Source: a virus
Length of the DNA: 12,853 nt
Direction: 5' to 3' (one strand)
UHGV virus genome: UHGV-1704341
Positions 1-3,790 of this stretch are shown piece after piece; position 1 is the first letter of the stretch; every line of letters starts with the position of its first letter. The notes under the pieces were generated by a model. The model searched no databases. It was not told the DNA's origin and saw nothing but the letters and a program-made list of their open reading frames with translations. The translations under genes and the position numbers were made by a program.

Positions 1-423
1 TCCCGCCAAAGCAGTGGCTGTTGTGGTGGGGTTGTCACTCAGGCGTATGGTCAACCTGACAATCCGGTGTCCTCAACGGGGAAAGAGTAACCCCGCCATA
101 CTTACCGCCGCGCCATTTCGCGGATTACCACAACGCTGAGAGCACTTAGCCAGTTCGGCGCCACACTTTGTCTCGGCTCCATAAATGCTCTTATCGTTGC
201 ACCCTGGTCTCTTCCCAGGCGTCAAACCGAATCGCCACGCTGGTTAGGCGTCTTATCAGCATCATCATTGACTTGCACATTCCGGCTACCTGGTTTGTTT
301 GCCCGAGCAAGGAGTGGATTGTCCCCTTTAACGTCTCCAGACCGCTAACGACGCATGTGCCATACGCCGTGTTACAACCAAACTTTGTTTGAATCTTGCC
401 TGTTGCATGTTTCTTTTGGATAC

Positions 424-490: not shown

Positions 491-1165
491 TTAGGTCTTT
501 ATTTTGTATCTTCTTGGTTTTCCCGAGAAAATCACTGTACCAATTATAGAGCAATTACCGTTGATCTTAATGTAAGGTTCAGGCCAGTTTGGGTTTAATG
601 CTTTGAGGTAACGCTGTGTTCCATCTTCTATCAACCGCTTGAAGGTGGTTTCGCCTGTATCGTGCATCAATGCAATAACGTCGTCACCGTGGCAGGCAGG
701 GACTTCAGGATCAACAAAAATCATGTCTCCTGGGCGGTACTCATCAATCATTGAATCACCAATCACCCGCAAGATATAAGTCATTTCACCACAGGGTACA
801 GGGCAGGGATAAGTTTCTGCTGTGCTCAAATCAACCTCAGAATAACCAACTTCTTTCCATGCTCCGGCCTGTACCCATGATATGACAGGGACTAACGTTA
901 TTTGTTTGTTAGTGATTGAAACATCAGGTTTTTTTGTGATGTTCGTTGTCTGGTGTTCTTGATCAAGCCATCCGACAGGCAGGTCGAAACATTTTTCGAT
1001 GTGCCGTGCCATGCTGTCACCGATATTTTTAGTTGCACCATCTCCCATAAACCTGCTGGTCTGGGTCGGCTCGCGATCAATCATGGTGGCAAAGGAAGAA
1101 TTCCCGCCAACACCATCTCTCAGTTTTCTGGCGTTAGACCGCCGGATGTCATGGACGGATGTCAT
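491..1165 (-). CDS. CI-type phage repressor (N-terminal DNA-binding region plus C-terminal S24 LexA-like peptidase domain)
   Basis: 224-aa ORF. C-terminal half carries the S24 autocleavage signature (VIGDSM, then an ...IFV.P... block) typical of CI/LexA/UmuD. N-terminal part ends ...LPVGWLD as in phage repressor HTH domains. Divergent to the Cro-like gene across an operator region. The start codon lies inside a 13-bp tandem duplication (see findings). Confidence 0.88.
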   Translation of the reverse strand: MTSVHDIRRSNARKLRDGVGGNSSFATMIDREPTQTSRFMGDGATKNIGDSMARHIEKCFDLPVGWLDQEHQTTNITKKPDVSITNKQITLVPVISWVQAGAWKEVGYSEVDLSTAETYPCPVPCGEMTYILRVIGDSMIDEYRPGDMIFVDPEVPACHGDDVIALMHDTGETTFKRLIEDGTQRYLKALNPNWPEPYIKINGNCSIIGTVIFSGKPRRYKIKT

Positions 1166-1268: not shown

Positions 1269-1382
1269 ATGAAAGCGTATTGGGACTCTTTAACCAAAGA
1301 ACAGCAGGGCGAGTTGGCCGGAAAAGTTGGCTCAACACCAGGCTACTTACGGCTGGTTTTCAATGGTTATAAACTGACTTAA
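1269..1382 (+). CDS. Short Cro-like HTH protein (37 aa)
   Basis: ATG at 1269 preceded by GGAGG (1254-1258). Product MKAYWDSLTKEQQGELAGKVGSTPGYLRLVFNGYKLT has an HTH-like core. First gene of the rightward operon, divergent from the repressor. Below the 60-aa cutoff of the ORF track. Confidence 0.5.
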   Translation: MKAYWDSLTKEQQGELAGKVGSTPGYLRLVFNGYKLT

Positions 1383-1439: not shown

Positions 1440-1721
1440 ATGAGGCTAACCGTGGGTAAGCATCACTGGAAAGTAGAAAAACAGCCTGAGTGGTACGTGA
1501 AAGCTGTCAGAAAAACTATCGCGGCATTGCCGGGGGGTTACGCTGAAGCTGCTGACTGGCTGGATGTAACAGAGAACGCATTATTTAACCGCCTTCGTGC
1601 CGATGGCGATCAGATTTTCCCGCTGGGATGGGCAATGGTTTTACAGCGTGCTGCTGGCACTCACCACATTGCCGGATGCAGTCGCACAGTCTGCTGGTGG
1701 GGTGTTTGTATCGCTTCCTGA
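1440..1721 (+). CDS. CII-like early regulator, N-terminal segment (frame 0); probably one gene with 1597-2010
   Basis: 93-aa ORF with an HTH-like stretch (TIAALPGGYAEAADWLDVTENALFNRL...) whose layout resembles lambda CII. The last ~20 residues ([20 protein letters not shown]) look non-protein-like, suggesting a frame change before 1721. Confidence 0.45.
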   Translation: MRLTVGKHHWKVEKQPEWYVKAVRKTIAALPGGYAEAADWLDVTENALFNRLRADGDQIFPLGWAMVLQRAAGTHHIAGCSRTVCWWGVCIAS

Positions 1722-2010
1722 AATTGAGGAAGTAGAGAACGCCGATATCAACCAACGCCTGCTGGAGGTCATTGAACAGATCGGCAGTTATTCAAAACAG
1801 ATTCGTTCAGCAATTGAAGACGGGGTGGTGGAACCACACGAGCAGGCAGCAATTAACGACGAACTGTACCTGTCAATTTCGAAGCTGCAGGAGCATGCAG
1901 CACTGGTCTACAAAATCTTTTGCATTTCAGAAAGTAATGACGCCCGCGAGTGTGCAGCTCCGGGCGTCGTGGCGTCGATTGCTTCTGGTTGTGGAGAAAC
2001 TAACGCATGA
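1597..2010 (+). CDS. C-terminal segment of the CII-like gene (frame 1), helical tail
   Basis: Frame 1 is open from 1570 and has no convincing RBS or start (GTG 1597, ATG 1603). Translation is helix-like ([35 protein letters not shown]...). Its stop overlaps the next start (ATGA at 2007-2010). Confidence 0.4.
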
Positions 2011-2345
2011 ACAGTTTAACAACACCCTACCGTCGCTCGCAACTGATTGCGCTTCCTGTACCGGGTGGAAAAGCGAAGGTGGAGTATTGCTATGCAGTGA
2101 ATGTACCAGGTGACAGGGAAATTGTAACCCACAGCTTTGCAGAGTGGGCTGTGGGTGATTTCAACCGGCAGAAGGAGACAGTCCTTTGCGACAAATTAAC
2201 CGCTGGTTCAAAGATCACTACGGAGTACCCGTCAGAGTCATTCGTTGGGAGCCGGAAACACAACGGGTTATCTACCTCCGCGAAGGCTATGAGCATGAAT
2301 GCTTCAGTCCGCTCGAACAGTTTCGTCGTAAATTCAGGGAAATAG
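2007..2345 (+). CDS. Hypothetical early protein with probable frame break (C-terminal part likely continues in frame 2 to 2365)
   Basis: ATG 2007 overlaps the upstream stop. The N-terminal ~60 aa look protein-like; the frame-0 tail is Ser-rich and low-complexity. Frame 2 from ~2186 to 2365 encodes a protein-like sequence ([56 protein letters not shown]) whose stop overlaps the O start. Confidence 0.4.
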
Positions 2346-2354
2346 AGGTCGGTC

Positions 2355-3305
2355 ATGAGCACTAAATTAACCGGCTATGTATGGGATGGTTGCGCAGCGT
2401 CAGGCATGAAATTATCCAGTGTGGCAATTATGGCCCGCCTGGCTGATTTCAGTAATGACGAAGGTGTGTGCTGGCCATCAATTGAAACCATTGCCCGCCA
2501 GATTGGCGCAGGGGTGAGTACTGTAAGAACGGCTATCGCACGGCTGGAAGCAGAAGGCTGGTTAACGCGTAAGGCGCGTCGCCAGGGTAACCGCAATGCG
2601 TCGAACGTCTATCAGCTTAACGTTGCAAAGCTTCAGGCTGCGGCACTTTCTCAACTGTCAGATTCTGACCCGTCAAAATCTGACGCATCAAAATCTGACC
2701 CGTCAAAATTTGATGCGTCGAAATCTGGCAAAAAAGCGGGTTTTCACCCGTCAGAATCTGGCGGGGATCCGTCAGTAAAATCAAAACATGATCCGTCAGA
2801 TAAAAAACCTTCTCGTCCGGACGCTTCGCAACCGGACACGCAGAAGGCTGAACAGGATTTTTTAACTCGCCATCCTGATGATCCTGATGCGGTTGTATTC
2901 AGCCCTAAAAAGCGCCAGTGGGGAACGCAGGATGATTTGACCTGCGCACAGTGGCTCTGGAAAAAAATCATCGCCCTGTACGAGCAGGCCGCCGAATGTG
3001 ACGGCGAGGTGGTACGTCCGAAAGAACCGAACTGGACAGCTTGGGCAAATGAAATTCGCCTGATGTGTGTACAGGACGGTCGTACCCACAAACAAATCTG
3101 CGAGATGTACAACCGTGTCAGCCGCGACCCGTTCTGGTGCCGTAACGTGCTCAGCCCGTCGAAGCTGCGGGAAAAATGGGATGAACTTTCCCTGCGCTTA
3201 TCGCCGTCCGTCAGCACGTACACAGAAAAACGCGAAGACCCGTACTTCAAAGCCAGTTACGACAATGTGGACTACAGCCAGATCCCGGCAGGATTCAGGG
3301 GGTGA
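2355..3305 (+). CDS. Replication initiator, lambda O-like (C-terminal domain similar to lambda O; distinct N-terminal domain)
   Basis: 316-aa ORF. The C-terminal stretch WGTQDDLTCAQW...NWTAWANEIRLM...DGRTH...FWCRNVLSPSKLREKW parallels the lambda O C-terminal domain as I recall it. A pentapeptide-repeat linker (SDPSK/SDASK) is encoded by the iterons. Confidence 0.85.
   Translation: MSTKLTGYVWDGCAASGMKLSSVAIMARLADFSNDEGVCWPSIETIARQIGAGVSTVRTAIARLEAEGWLTRKARRQGNRNASNVYQLNVAKLQAAALSQLSDSDPSKSDASKSDPSKFDASKSGKKAGFHPSESGGDPSVKSKHDPSDKKPSRPDASQPDTQKAEQDFLTRHPDDPDAVVFSPKKRQWGTQDDLTCAQWLWKKIIALYEQAAECDGEVVRPKEPNWTAWANEIRLMCVQDGRTHKQICEMYNRVSRDPFWCRNVLSPSKLREKWDELSLRLSPSVSTYTEKREDPYFKASYDNVDYSQIPAGFRG
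2665..2810. repeat. ori-like iteron array inside the O gene, followed by an A-rich tract
   Basis: Four 15-bp repeats (tctgacccgtcaaaa / tctgacgcatcaaaa / tctgacccgtcaaaa / tttgatgcgtcgaaa, 2665-2724) with internal dyad symmetry, three further ccgtcag repeats (2748-2799), then an A-rich stretch (2800-2807). Same arrangement as lambda ori within O. Confidence 0.6.
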
Positions 3306-3307
3306 TA

Positions 3308-3790
3308 ATGAGCCTTTTGAATGACGTTCAGAAATTCATTGAAGCCCATCCGGGGTGTACTTCCGGAGACATTGCGGATGCTTTTGCAGGTTACTCACGG
3401 CAGCGCGTTCTGCAGTCAGCAAGCAAGTTACGTCAGAGTGGGCGTGTGGCTCACCGTTGTGAAGGGGATACACGCAGACATTTCCCGCGCCAGGCTGAGA
3501 TATTGCAGGAGCCGGAACCAGTTTGTGAAACCAGACCTGTGCGCAATTTCTATGTCGGCACTAACGACCCCCGGGTGATTTTGTGCCTGACCCGCCAGGC
3601 TGAAGAACTGGAGTCCAGGGGCTTATTCCGTCGAGCTGCAACGGTGTGGATGGAGGCATTCCGTGAAAGCCACTCCCAGCCAGAACGAAACAATTTTCTG
3701 GCGCATCGTGAGCGGTGCTTACGGAAAAGCAGCAAGCGCGCTGCATCGGGTGAAGAGTGGTATCTGTCAGGGAATTACGTGGGGGCTTAA
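3308..3790 (+). CDS. Hypothetical protein in the position of a helicase loader (possible winged-helix N-terminus)
   Basis: ATG 3308 follows a G-rich SD-like stretch (aggggg) and sits 3 nt after the O stop. 160-aa product shows no recognisable similarity to lambda P or DnaC-type loaders. Stop overlaps the next start (TAATG at 3788-3792). Confidence 0.55.
   Translation: MSLLNDVQKFIEAHPGCTSGDIADAFAGYSRQRVLQSASKLRQSGRVAHRCEGDTRRHFPRQAEILQEPEPVCETRPVRNFYVGTNDPRVILCLTRQAEELESRGLFRRAATVWMEAFRESHSQPERNNFLAHRERCLRKSSKRAASGEEWYLSGNYVGA

What the first reader, a model, noticed from the sequence alone, without database searches (positions are those of the whole stretch)
1440..2365. Two early genes between cro and O each appear to change reading frame midway
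For the CII-like gene, frame 0 (1440-1721) carries the HTH-like region but ends in a non-protein-like tail, and frame 1 (open from 1570, ending 2010) carries a helical C-terminal region with no start signal of its own. For the next gene, frame 0 from ATG 2007 has a plausible N-terminus but a low-complexity tail, and frame 2 from ~2186 to 2365 encodes a convincing C-terminus whose stop overlaps the O start. Either both genes carry frameshifts or they are unusual overlapping gene pairs.
Basis: inference. Interest (0 to 1): 0.4.

Follow-up and report, generated by a model that had tools for sequence, protein, structure and literature searches.

The report
One broken gene, one overlapping pair
In this prophage control region, the first "frame change" is a one-base insertion breaking a CII-like regulator gene, and the second is a conserved pair of overlapping genes: the cell-division inhibitor gene ymfM with a small DUF4222 gene nested out of frame inside it.

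Summary
The two cases have different causes.

(1) ymfL, the CII-like gene at 1452-2010, carries one extra C at 1672. Removing it restores a 185-aa protein identical to E. coli YmfL. None of 633 complete E. coli genomes carrying this segment has the extra base. It is one of nine indels private to this sequence, against at most two substitutions in 12.8 kb. It is therefore a pseudogene lesion or a sequence artefact, not an evolved feature.

(2) The stretch 2007-2365 has no indel relative to any relative. ymfM (2007-2345) and a DUF4222 gene (2186-2365, TTG start with its own AAGGAG) overlap by 160 nt.
- In 44 of 44 enterobacterial loci the ymfM frame stays open across DUF4222.
- Synonymous shuffling keeps it open in only 3-14% of trials per locus.
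- Codons that would create stops in that frame are strictly avoided.
- The ymfM stop lies 9 nt before the next gene's ATG in 41 of 44 loci, whatever gene follows.
- The overlapped tail's amino-acid sequence is unconstrained and predicted disordered.

Both genes appear real. K-12 annotates only ymfM and PGAP annotates only DUF4222. The published filamentation clones carried both.

The parts
1269..1382 (+). cro-like gene (ymfT), truncated. A 61-bp deletion after 1373 removes the 3' half and shifts the frame (37 aa instead of 66).
   Evidence: Alignment to E. coli FDAARGOS_497, ECONIH1 and phage SfIV. The intact 66-aa relative hits YdaS_toxin/HTH_3, while the window product hits nothing.
1452..1671 (+). 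ymfL (CII-like, Phage_CP76) 5' part, in frame 0. The PGAP start is GTG 1452, and an ATG lies at 1440. It holds 73 native codons. After the extra base the frame runs to a stop at 1719-1721.
1672..1672 (+). Extra C (ATTGCCGGATG against ATTGCGGATG), a 1-bp tandem duplication that causes the frame change in ymfL.
   Evidence: It is absent from all 633 complete E. coli genomes with this segment, from JGI metagenomes and from IMG/VR.
1673..2010 (+). ymfL 3' part, in frame 1, ending at TGA 2008-2010, which overlaps the ymfM start as ATGA.
   Evidence: Pfam Phage_CP76 positions 61-141. The repaired ORF is 185/185 identical to WP_024946496.1.
2007..2345 (+). ymfM (112 aa), 96% identical to K-12 'cell division inhibitor YmfM'. 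Codons 1-60 form a conserved N-terminal module. Codons 61-112 form an S/T/A/G-rich tail read in the +1 frame of the DUF4222 gene. A GGAG lies at 1993-1996, and the start is coupled to the ymfL stop.
2172..2177 (+). AAGGAG Shine-Dalgarno sequence, 8 nt upstream of the DUF4222 start codon and internal to ymfM.
   Evidence: Sequence. SD-like purine runs lie at the same place in the 43 other loci.
2186..2365 (+). DUF4222 gene (59 aa, TTG start), nested out of frame in ymfM (overlap 2186-2345, 160 nt). It overlaps the O start by 11 nt.
   Evidence: Pfam PF13973, 66 bits. The start position is conserved, and it is ATG in 37 of 42 unique sequences. pN/pS is 0.22. AlphaFold2 pLDDT is 83.
2343..2357 (+). 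Junction: ymfM stop TAG (2343-2345) embedded in the SD-like TAGAGG, then 9 nt, then the O-gene ATG (2355-2357) in the same frame as ymfM.
   Evidence: The same geometry is seen in 41 of 44 loci, whatever family the downstream gene belongs to.
2355..3305 (+). O-like replication initiator (HTH_36/DnaD_N) with 15-nt iteron-like repeats at 2643-2765 and a private 9-bp tandem duplication at 2872.

Best explanation
Gene 1 (ymfL).
- It is an ordinary CII-like regulator gene (Pfam Phage_CP76, NCBIfam YmfL).
- It is broken here by a single duplicated C at 1672. As it stands it can only make an 89-aa truncated product (73 native residues plus 16 out-of-frame residues).
- Ribosomes would stop about 285 nt before the ymfM start, which in intact relatives overlaps the ymfL stop as ATGA.
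- The lesion is private to this sequence. It is either a real pseudogenising mutation or a sequence artefact.

Gene 2.
- It is a conserved out-of-frame overlapping pair, and no frameshifting is involved.
- ymfM starts at ATG 2007, encodes a conserved module of about 60 aa, and then reads through the first 52-53 codons of the DUF4222 gene in its +1 frame. It stops at TAG 2343, 9 nt before the O-gene ATG.
- DUF4222 is translated independently from its own AAGGAG and TTG 2186 (ATG in most other lineages). It folds into a small beta-barrel.

Shown. Both frames are maintained by selection. Selection on the overlapped ymfM tail acts on keeping the frame open and on where it stops, not on its amino-acid sequence.

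Inferred. What matters is that ribosomes translate across the DUF4222 gene in the +1 frame and terminate at the ribosome-binding site of the next gene. This would give translational coupling ymfL -> ymfM -> replication gene, with DUF4222 expressed from an internal start. Alternatively or additionally, the tail serves as a sequence-tolerant disordered linker.
For: ymfL.
- The closest relatives (99.8% identity) and phage SfIV have one 558-nt ORF.
- Phage_CP76 spans both window frames, as do NF041471 and phrog_101.
- Removing one C gives a protein 185/185 identical to YmfL.
- The extra C is absent from 633 of 633 E. coli genomes with this segment, from JGI metagenomes and from IMG/VR.
- In 74 of 76 IMG/VR loci where it could be scored, the frame that ends at the ATGA is open for at least 184 codons.

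Overlap.
- There is no indel against relatives.
- Both ORFs are intact in K-12 and in 79 of 80 IMG/VR loci.
- In the window plus 43 loci from about 15 genera, the +1 frame is open from at least 171 nt upstream (bounded by the contig end in two short loci) to +157..163. The +2 frame closes by +26 in all but three.
- Under synonymous randomisation P(open) is 0.03-0.14 per locus. The summed log10 P over 23 representatives below 85% nucleotide identity is -27.
- Val/Leu codons followed by an A-initial codon end in A or G in 0 of 69 cases. When followed by C or T they do so in 23 of 55 cases (Fisher p = 3e-10). Arg after NT[AG] is never AGR (0 of 36 against 47 of 183).
- At column 56 the rare codons ATA, TTA, CTA and GTA account for 41 of 42 sequences and form the +1-frame stop.
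- That stop lies 9 nt before the downstream ATG in 41 of 44 loci. The downstream genes have at least 7 different N-termini and different Pfam families.
- The ymfM-type start is ATGA-coupled with a GGAG in nearly all loci.
- pN/pS is 0.32 for the N-module and 0.22 for the overlap read in the DUF frame. Synonymous divergence is not reduced in the overlap (pS 0.63 against 0.37).
- The tail is predicted unstructured, and DUF4222 is predicted with pLDDT 83.
- 340 YmfM-family clusters were found, and the top 120 are all 108-114 aa apart from one 184-aa fusion.
- Distant DUF4222 genes whose upstream gene ends at the DUF start (Serratia phage BZS1, Citrobacter phage phiNP, Elizabethkingia phage EKP1) do carry +1-frame stops.
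Against: - There are no reads, so the extra C cannot be classed as a mutation or an error.
- No expression data (ribosome profiling or proteomics) were found for either frame of the overlap.
- The loci are phylogenetically related, so the joint probabilities overstate independence. The codon-context contrast within the same sequences does not depend on independence.
- Two of five distant non-overlapping DUF4222 genes (Providencia, Yersinia phage YeP3) also lack +1-frame stops within the domain.
- RNA folding around the O start is not unusually stable (z = +1.4). Coupling by unmasking a structure is therefore not supported, and termination-reinitiation is only inferred.
- In SfV-type phages the +1 frame has no stop and continues into an Ash/Rha domain. 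This fits a linker role at least as well as coupling.
Confidence: 0.82

Rival explanations
1. Both genes are frameshifted, by mutation or sequencing error. The true second gene would be a single protein of about 118 aa made of the YmfM N-module fused to DUF4222.
For: Rare fused proteins of this kind exist in public data (P0027, P0056, P0063, P0067; 1-14 member sequences each).
Against: - There is no indel in 2007-2365 against any relative.
- 79 of 80 IMG/VR loci, K-12 and 43 genome loci share the two-frame layout.
- The DUF frame has a stop 0-2 codons upstream of its start in several lineages.
- DUF4222 proteins are stand-alone, 59-70 aa, with a conserved start.
Confidence: 0.02
2. Only DUF4222 and the first ~60 codons of ymfM matter. 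On this view the ymfM tail is a meaningless read-through that stays open by chance or by composition.
For: - The tail's amino-acid sequence is unconstrained and predicted disordered.
- In Providencia the homologous upstream gene ends 11 nt into DUF4222.
- Shorter versions of 76-78 aa exist (P0062, P0068), and phrog_20047 is a 63-aa N-module family.
Against: - The frame is open in 44 of 44 loci despite 1.6-2.6 expected stops each.
- Codon choice that avoids stops is frame-specific.
- Rare codons are used to place the stop at one fixed site.
- The +2 frame is full of stops.
- Family lengths are uniform at 108-114 aa.
Confidence: 0.06
3. The tail is kept because it is a functional, sequence-tolerant disordered segment of the protein (linker or C-terminal extension), not because of ribosome delivery to the next gene.
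For: - In SfV, ST64B, cdtI and PhiR40_1 the same +1 segment joins a YmfM-like N-module to Ash/Rha domains in one ORF of 278-383 aa.
- In Stx phages it forms the N-terminal ~60 aa of annotated Ash/Ant proteins.
- It is predicted disordered.
Against: - The stop tracks the downstream ATG at exactly 9 nt even when the DUF length varies (157, 160 or 163), and it sits inside the SD. A mere tail does not need that.
- phrog_3960 proteins start after the segment, so the long ORFs in SfV-type phages may partly reflect annotation choices.
Confidence: 0.35
4. Programmed ribosomal frameshifting, or transcriptional slippage, joins the two frames in one or both genes.
For: The frame geometry would allow it: +1 for ymfL and -1 for ymfM->DUF4222.
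Against: - ymfL relatives are single-frame, and the site GCCGGA is not a known slippery motif.
- No conserved X XXY YYZ heptamer was seen by eye near the DUF start.
- DUF4222 has its own conserved SD and start codon.
Confidence: 0.02
5. The extra C in ymfL, together with the eight other private indels, is an artefact of sequencing, assembly or sequence handling and not a mutation present in a cell.
For: - There are nine indels against at most two substitutions over 12.8 kb relative to the closest genome.
- All four insertions are perfect tandem duplications.
- The five deletions have 0-1 nt of microhomology.
- The window ends in a poly-G run unrelated to the relatives.
- No public sequence searched carries either junction.
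Against: Typical read or assembly errors are not 16-61-bp deletions or 9-16-bp tandem duplications. A decaying prophage could accumulate such lesions.
Confidence: 0.5

Closest known systems
E. coli K-12 e14 prophage ymfL-ymfM (YmfM = SfiC, SOS-inducible cell-division inhibitor; bioRxiv 10.1101/2020.11.19.390815)
   Same: The gene order cI-cro-ymfL-ymfM-replication gene is the same. YmfM is 96% identical, and both overlapping ORFs are intact in K-12.
   Different: - K-12 ymfL is intact.
- K-12 RefSeq annotates ymfM only, and the nested DUF4222 ORF is not annotated.
- The paper does not mention the overlap.
Lambda Rz/Rz1 (a gene wholly embedded in the +1 frame of another). From general knowledge, not tested here.
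   Same: It is an out-of-frame nested gene with its own start inside a lambdoid phage gene, and both products are made.
   Different: Here the nesting is partial: DUF4222 runs 20 nt past the ymfM stop. The outer gene's overlapped part shows no amino-acid constraint. The function is unrelated to lysis.
Pfam PF13973 (DUF4222) / phrog_1343
   Same: Full-length domain match. It is a stand-alone small protein placed just upstream of the replication gene.
   Different: No function is known. The predicted fold is a generic SH3/Tudor/KOW-like small barrel with no significant structural match.
Phage CII-type regulators: Pfam PF06892 (Phage_CP76), NCBIfam NF041471 (YmfL), phrog_101
   Same: The repaired window ORF is identical to YmfL and matches these models.
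   Different: As it stands the window gene is split by a +1 insertion. A different ymfL frameshift (G6->G7) occurs in phage vB_EcoS-569R4.
Translational coupling by termination-reinitiation at closely spaced stop and start codons (e.g. trp operon junctions, RNA phage genes). From general knowledge.
   Same: ATGA at the ymfL/ymfM junction. The ymfM stop lies within the SD, 9 nt before the next ATG.
   Different: The upstream ORF reaches the junction only by reading across another gene out of frame. Coupling itself was not tested.

Membership tests
Phage_CP76 / YmfL (CII-like regulator) | One ORF of about 185 aa matching the family profile over most of its length | tested here: not met
   In the window only the frame-1 part matches (profile 61-141, 35 bits), and the frame-0 part alone gives no hit. 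The intact relative matches 5-141 (55 bits). Met only after deleting C1672.
Phage_CP76 / YmfL (CII-like regulator) | Position between cro and the replication genes on the rightward early operon | tested here: met
   Gene order in the window and in annotated relatives.
DUF4222 (PF13973) | Score above the Pfam gathering threshold over the whole domain | tested here: met
   66 bits against a cut-off of 27, domain positions 4-52 of 53.
DUF4222 (PF13973) | Independent start codon with a ribosome-binding site | tested here: met
   TTG 2186 with AAGGAG 8 nt upstream. The start column is ATG in 37 of 42 sequences, TTG in 3 and GTG in 2. Translation itself was not measured.
YmfM family (phrog_1170; no Pfam model) | Full-length match with the conserved N-terminal module (M1, Q12, P17, G20, Y29, V49) | tested here: met
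   phrog_1170 positions 1-112 of 112, E = 3.6e-68. Alignments A3 and A4.
YmfM family (phrog_1170; no Pfam model) | Cell-division inhibition (SfiC phenotype) | not testable with these tools
   Reported for K-12 ymfM clones that also carried the DUF4222 ORF.
Functional overlapping gene pair (overprinting) | Both reading frames show evidence of selection in the overlap | tested here: met
   The DUF frame has pN/pS 0.22. The ymfM frame shows stop avoidance and a fixed stop position. There is no amino-acid constraint on the ymfM frame in the overlap.
Functional overlapping gene pair (overprinting) | Both products detected | not testable with these tools
   No expression data were found.
Programmed ribosomal frameshift | Two-frame layout conserved in relatives, with a slippery site and no independent start for the second frame | tested here: not met
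   ymfL relatives are single-frame. DUF4222 has its own conserved start and SD, and stops lie immediately upstream in its frame in some loci.
Translational coupling (termination-reinitiation) | Stop of the upstream ORF within a few nt of the downstream start, conserved | tested here: met
   ATGA at ymfL/ymfM. The ymfM stop lies 9 nt before the next ATG in 41 of 44 loci.
Translational coupling (termination-reinitiation) | Downstream translation depends on upstream translation | not testable with these tools
   Needs reporter fusions. RNA folding gave no sign of a masking structure.

The most novel reading that the evidence does not exclude
The +1 frame across DUF4222 may be kept open as a translated 'bridge'. 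Its peptide sequence would be irrelevant. Its role would be to carry ribosomes from the ymfL/ymfM start across the nested DUF4222 gene to the ribosome-binding site of whichever replication or regulator gene follows. In SfV- and Stx-type phages it would carry them directly into that gene.

A corollary concerns the SfiC filamentation phenotype assigned to the 112-aa YmfM. It may be due wholly or partly to the unannotated DUF4222 protein, because every published inhibitory clone contained that ORF.
Probability: 0.2. Interest if true: 0.7.

Novelty: new member of a known kind. Interest (0 to 1): 0.5.

Why it matters
- The ymfL frameshift is of local interest only. It marks this copy as defective or the sequence as unreliable.
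- The overlap matters more because ymfM is the long-sought sfiC gene of E. coli K-12.
- A strongly conserved, well-folding protein gene (DUF4222) sits inside it. That gene is missing from the K-12 annotation, and NCBI's pipeline annotates it at the expense of ymfM in other genomes.
- Every published filamentation clone carried both ORFs, so the gene-phenotype assignment is not resolved at the protein level.
- The pair is also a clean natural example of selection on an open reading frame and its stop position without selection on the encoded sequence. This makes translational coupling across a nested gene directly testable with a few synonymous mutations.

Tried and rejected
- Exact look-up of the 93-aa truncated product in the public gene index found nothing.
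- Exact-pattern scans for the extra-C site and for the 61-bp deletion junction in IMG/VR and JGI metagenomes found nothing. The source could not be identified.
- The IMG/VR scan with the DUF4222 alignment returned only near-identical loci (95-97%). It was useful as a population check but not for divergence.
- RNA folding of the O-start region gave no unusual stability.
- The Rfam scan of the whole window gave no hit.
- The Foldseek search of the DUF4222 model against the PDB gave only generic small-barrel matches with E > 0.05.
- The YmfM structure prediction has low confidence (pLDDT 48). It was used only to note the lack of predicted structure in the tail.
- The literature search found no paper combining ymfM with ribosome profiling. 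The five papers that mention DUF4222 do so once each, and I did not read them.
- The 2004 e14 analysis (Mehta et al.) is not held in the library.
- Programmed frameshifting was considered and rejected for both genes (see rival explanations).
Full report
CONTEXT

The window is the immunity and early-right region of an e14/SfIV-like lambdoid prophage of E. coli. The gene order is as follows.
- cI/ymfK, on the minus strand, 491-1165.
- cro/ymfT, from 1269.
- ymfL, CII-like.
- ymfM.
- An O-like replication gene, 2355-3305.
- PerC, Dam, RusA, KilA-N, Q, lysis genes and terminase.

This order follows. The closest complete genomes match the finding's region at 99.8% identity and the whole window at 99.3-99.4%.

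OBSERVATION

GENE 1: ymfL

An alignment with E. coli FDAARGOS_497 and phage SfIV shows a single extra C in the window at 1672 (ATTGCCGGATG against ATTGCGGATG). There is no other indel in the gene.
- Relatives carry one 558-nt ORF annotated as YmfL, or as a DNA-binding regulator in SfIV.
- Pfam Phage_CP76 covers profile positions 5-141 in the intact protein. In the window it covers only 61-141, in frame 1, and the frame-0 product gives no hit.
- NCBIfam NF041471 (YmfL) and phrog_101 (CII-like activator) agree.
- Deleting the C gives a protein 185/185 identical to WP_024946496.1.

The extra C is in none of the 633 complete E. coli genomes that carry this segment; the best match is 71 of 72 bases. 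It is also absent from JGI metagenomes and IMG/VR. The 93-aa product is not in the public gene index.

As it stands the gene yields 73 native residues plus 16 out-of-frame residues. Translation ends about 285 nt before the ymfM start, which normally overlaps the ymfL stop as ATGA.

THE FRAMESHIFT IS NOT ALONE

Against the best relative (ECONIH1) the 12.8-kb window has at most two substitutions away from its ends but nine indels.

| Position | Change | Location |
|---|---|---|
| 1143 | +13 bp | cI start |
| after 1373 | -61 bp | cro |
| 1672 | +1 bp | ymfL |
| 2872 | +9 bp | O gene |
| 8176 | -33 bp | not assigned |
| 9110 | -16 bp | lysis gene region |
| 10387 | -56 bp | HNH endonuclease gene |
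| 10713 | -25 bp | small terminase gene |
| 11908 | +16 bp | large terminase gene |

All insertions are perfect tandem duplications. The deletions have 0-1 nt of microhomology. The last 18 bases of the window are a poly-G-rich stretch unrelated to the relatives.

This ratio of indels to substitutions and the blunt deletions are not what ordinary divergence gives. I cannot decide between an unusually decayed prophage and an artefact without reads. Either way the ymfL frame change is a lesion, not a design.

A different ymfL frameshift (a G6 to G7 run) occurs in phage vB_EcoS-569R4.

GENE 2: ymfM AND DUF4222

There is no indel here relative to any relative.

The 112-aa ORF is 96% identical to K-12 YmfM, annotated as 'cell division inhibitor YmfM'. 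The 59-aa ORF is a complete DUF4222 domain.

Annotations choose one or the other.
- K-12 RefSeq and the SfIV record annotate ymfM.
- PGAP genomes annotate DUF4222 and leave 175 nt upstream unannotated.

Both ORFs are intact in K-12 and in 79 of 80 IMG/VR loci.

DUF4222 IS A GENUINE GENE

- Stand-alone homologues of 59-70 aa occur across Enterobacterales at 55-98% identity, with the start at the same column.
- The start codon is ATG in 37 of 42 unique sequences, TTG in the E. coli type and GTG in two.
- An SD-like run precedes it; in the window this is AAGGAG, 8 nt upstream.
- pN/pS is 0.22.
- AlphaFold2 gives pLDDT 83 and a small beta-barrel. Only generic SH3/Tudor/KOW-like neighbours were found.

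ymfM IS ALSO GENUINE

- Its first 56-60 codons form a family with several divergent subtypes that still align (M1, Q12, P17, G20, Y29, V49).
- pN/pS of this part is 0.32.
- Its start is coupled to the stop of the CII-like gene (GGAG...ATGA) in nearly all loci.
- A profile search finds 340 clusters. The top 120 are all 108-114 aa, apart from one 184-aa fusion carrying an extra Pfam domain. None has a precomputed Pfam domain apart from that fusion.

THE OVERLAP IS MAINTAINED BY SELECTION

I examined the window plus 43 loci from one-genome-per-species contigs of about 15 genera.

Frame openness.
- The ymfM (+1) frame is open from at least 171 nt upstream of the DUF4222 start to +157..163 in every locus. 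In two short loci the upstream bound is the contig end.
- The +2 frame closes by +26 in all but three loci.

Randomisation.
- Randomising synonymous codons of each DUF4222 gene leaves the +1 frame open in only 3-14% of trials, with 1.6-2.6 stops expected per locus.
- Over 23 representatives below 85% nucleotide identity, the summed log10 P is -27. This is an upper bound on significance, because the lineages are related.

Codon context, which does not depend on independence.
- Val and four-fold Leu codons followed by an A-initial codon end in A or G in 0 of 69 cases. The same codons followed by C or T do so in 23 of 55 cases (p = 3e-10).
- Arg after NT[A/G] is never AGR, 0 of 36 against 47 of 183 elsewhere.

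Stop placement.
- At alignment column 56 the rare codons ATA, TTA, CTA and GTA are used in 41 of 42 sequences and create the +1-frame stop.

WHAT IS SELECTED

It is not the tail's sequence.
- Synonymous sites of the DUF frame, which are second positions of the ymfM frame, are the most variable positions (pS 0.63 against 0.37 in the non-overlapping ymfM part).
- Read in the ymfM frame, the overlap gives pN 0.27 and pS 0.17.
- The tail is predicted unstructured.

What is conserved is that the frame stays open and where it ends.
- The stop (TAG or TAA) lies 9 nt before the ATG of the next gene in 41 of 44 loci; the other three have 6, 6 and 18 nt.
- It is in the same frame as that ATG and embedded in the SD-like TAGAGG or TAAAGGA.
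- This holds even when the DUF length differs, and whichever gene follows. The downstream genes include HTH_36 O-like genes, Phg_2220_C-type genes and several unknowns.

OTHER ARCHITECTURES WITH THE SAME OPEN FRAME

- In SfV-type phages (SfV and PhiR40_1 examined here; ST64B and cdtI match equally) there is no stop. The +1 frame runs from a YmfM-like N-module through DUF4222 into Ash/Rha domains, giving ORFs of 278-383 aa.
- In Stx phages a +1 ORF starts 17 nt before the DUF4222 ATG and continues into Ash/Ant.

CONTROLS WITHOUT THE LONG OVERLAP

In distant DUF4222 genes the upstream gene ends at the DUF start.
- Serratia phage BZS1, Citrobacter phage phiNP and Elizabethkingia phage EKP1 carry two to four +1-frame stops inside the DUF4222 gene.
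- Providencia and Yersinia phage YeP3 do not.

The Providencia locus suggests an ancestral chain of three sequentially coupled genes, from which the long overlap arose by loss of the upstream stop.

MECHANISM

Shown: two independently initiated, out-of-frame overlapping genes, with both frames under selection.

Inferred, at about 0.4: the +1 segment is kept so that ribosomes translating ymfM cross the nested gene and terminate at the next gene's ribosome-binding site, giving coupling ymfL -> ymfM -> O.

The main alternative, at about 0.35, is a sequence-tolerant disordered linker or tail. The SfV-type fusions favour this reading.

RNA folding gives no sign of a masking hairpin at the O start.

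LITERATURE

ymfM was identified as sfiC by expressing the ymfM ORF from pBAD24. The earlier library clone spanned ymfL(142-185), ymfM and ymfN(1-92).
- The library clone contained the whole DUF4222 ORF.
- The pBAD24 clone contained all of it but its last six codons, as read from the K-12 coordinates.
- The paper does not discuss domains, homologues, start codons or the overlap.
- I found no paper that describes the overlap.

VERDICT

The finding is half ordinary: a private 1-bp insertion in ymfL, in a sequence with a suspicious excess of private indels. The other half is a real and apparently undescribed conserved overlapping gene pair in a classical K-12 prophage locus.

Noticed in passing
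window 1269-1382 (deletion after 1373): The cro-like gene ymfT lacks 61 bp that are present in all close relatives. It is truncated to 37 aa, and the deletion has no flanking microhomology.
   Followed up: partly
window 1143-1155: A 13-bp perfect tandem duplication (CGGATGTCATGGA) sits at the 5' end of the cI/ymfK gene. The original ATG (1178) now runs into a stop after 9 codons. The duplicated copy supplies a new in-frame ATG at 1165, giving a 224-aa repressor that begins MTSVHD instead of MKTVHD.
   Followed up: partly
whole window: 1143, 1373, 1672, 2872, 8176, 9110, 10387, 10713, 11908: There are nine private indels against at most two substitutions relative to the closest E. coli genome. 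All insertions are tandem duplications (1, 9, 13 and 16 bp). The deletions (16-61 bp) have blunt ends, and seven of the nine indels shift a reading frame. This is unexplained: it could be an unusual mutational history or a sequence artefact.
   Followed up: partly
window 12836-12853: The last 18 bases (a G-rich run followed by CAAGGTAC) do not match the relatives, which continue in the terminase large-subunit gene. This looks like a contig-end artefact.
   Followed up: no
window 2643-2765: Five to six 15-nt direct repeats (TCAAAATCTGACCCG-like, spacing 15) lie inside the O-like gene and encode an SKSDP repeat. They resemble iterons of a lambda-type origin located within the initiator gene.
   Followed up: no
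L047 (E. coli K-12 MG1655, NC_000913.3) 3502-3681: The DUF4222 ORF is intact in e14 of K-12 but not annotated there. PGAP-annotated genomes (L001, L003) annotate DUF4222 and drop ymfM.
   Followed up: yes
L130 (phage SfV) 1352-2188; L134 (PhiR40_1) 1352-2503; L132 and L133 (Stx phages) from 1484: The frame overlapping DUF4222 has no stop in these phages. It continues into Ash, Rha or Ant-type regulator domains, so annotated 'regulators' of 277-383 aa contain a ~52-aa segment overprinted on DUF4222.
   Followed up: partly
L129 (phage vB_EcoS-569R4) about 430-440, equivalent to window ~1513-1519: Another ymfL copy is split by a different frameshift, an extra G in a run of six G, and is annotated as two 'YmfL' CDS.
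   Followed up: partly
window 2343-2357: The O-gene ATG is in the same reading frame as ymfM, separated only by the TAG and three codons. Read-through of that stop would give a YmfM-O fusion.
   Followed up: no
proteins P0027, P0056, P0063, P0067: Rare public variants fuse the YmfM N-module in frame to DUF4222 through small indels. P0067 stands for 14 sequences.
   Followed up: no
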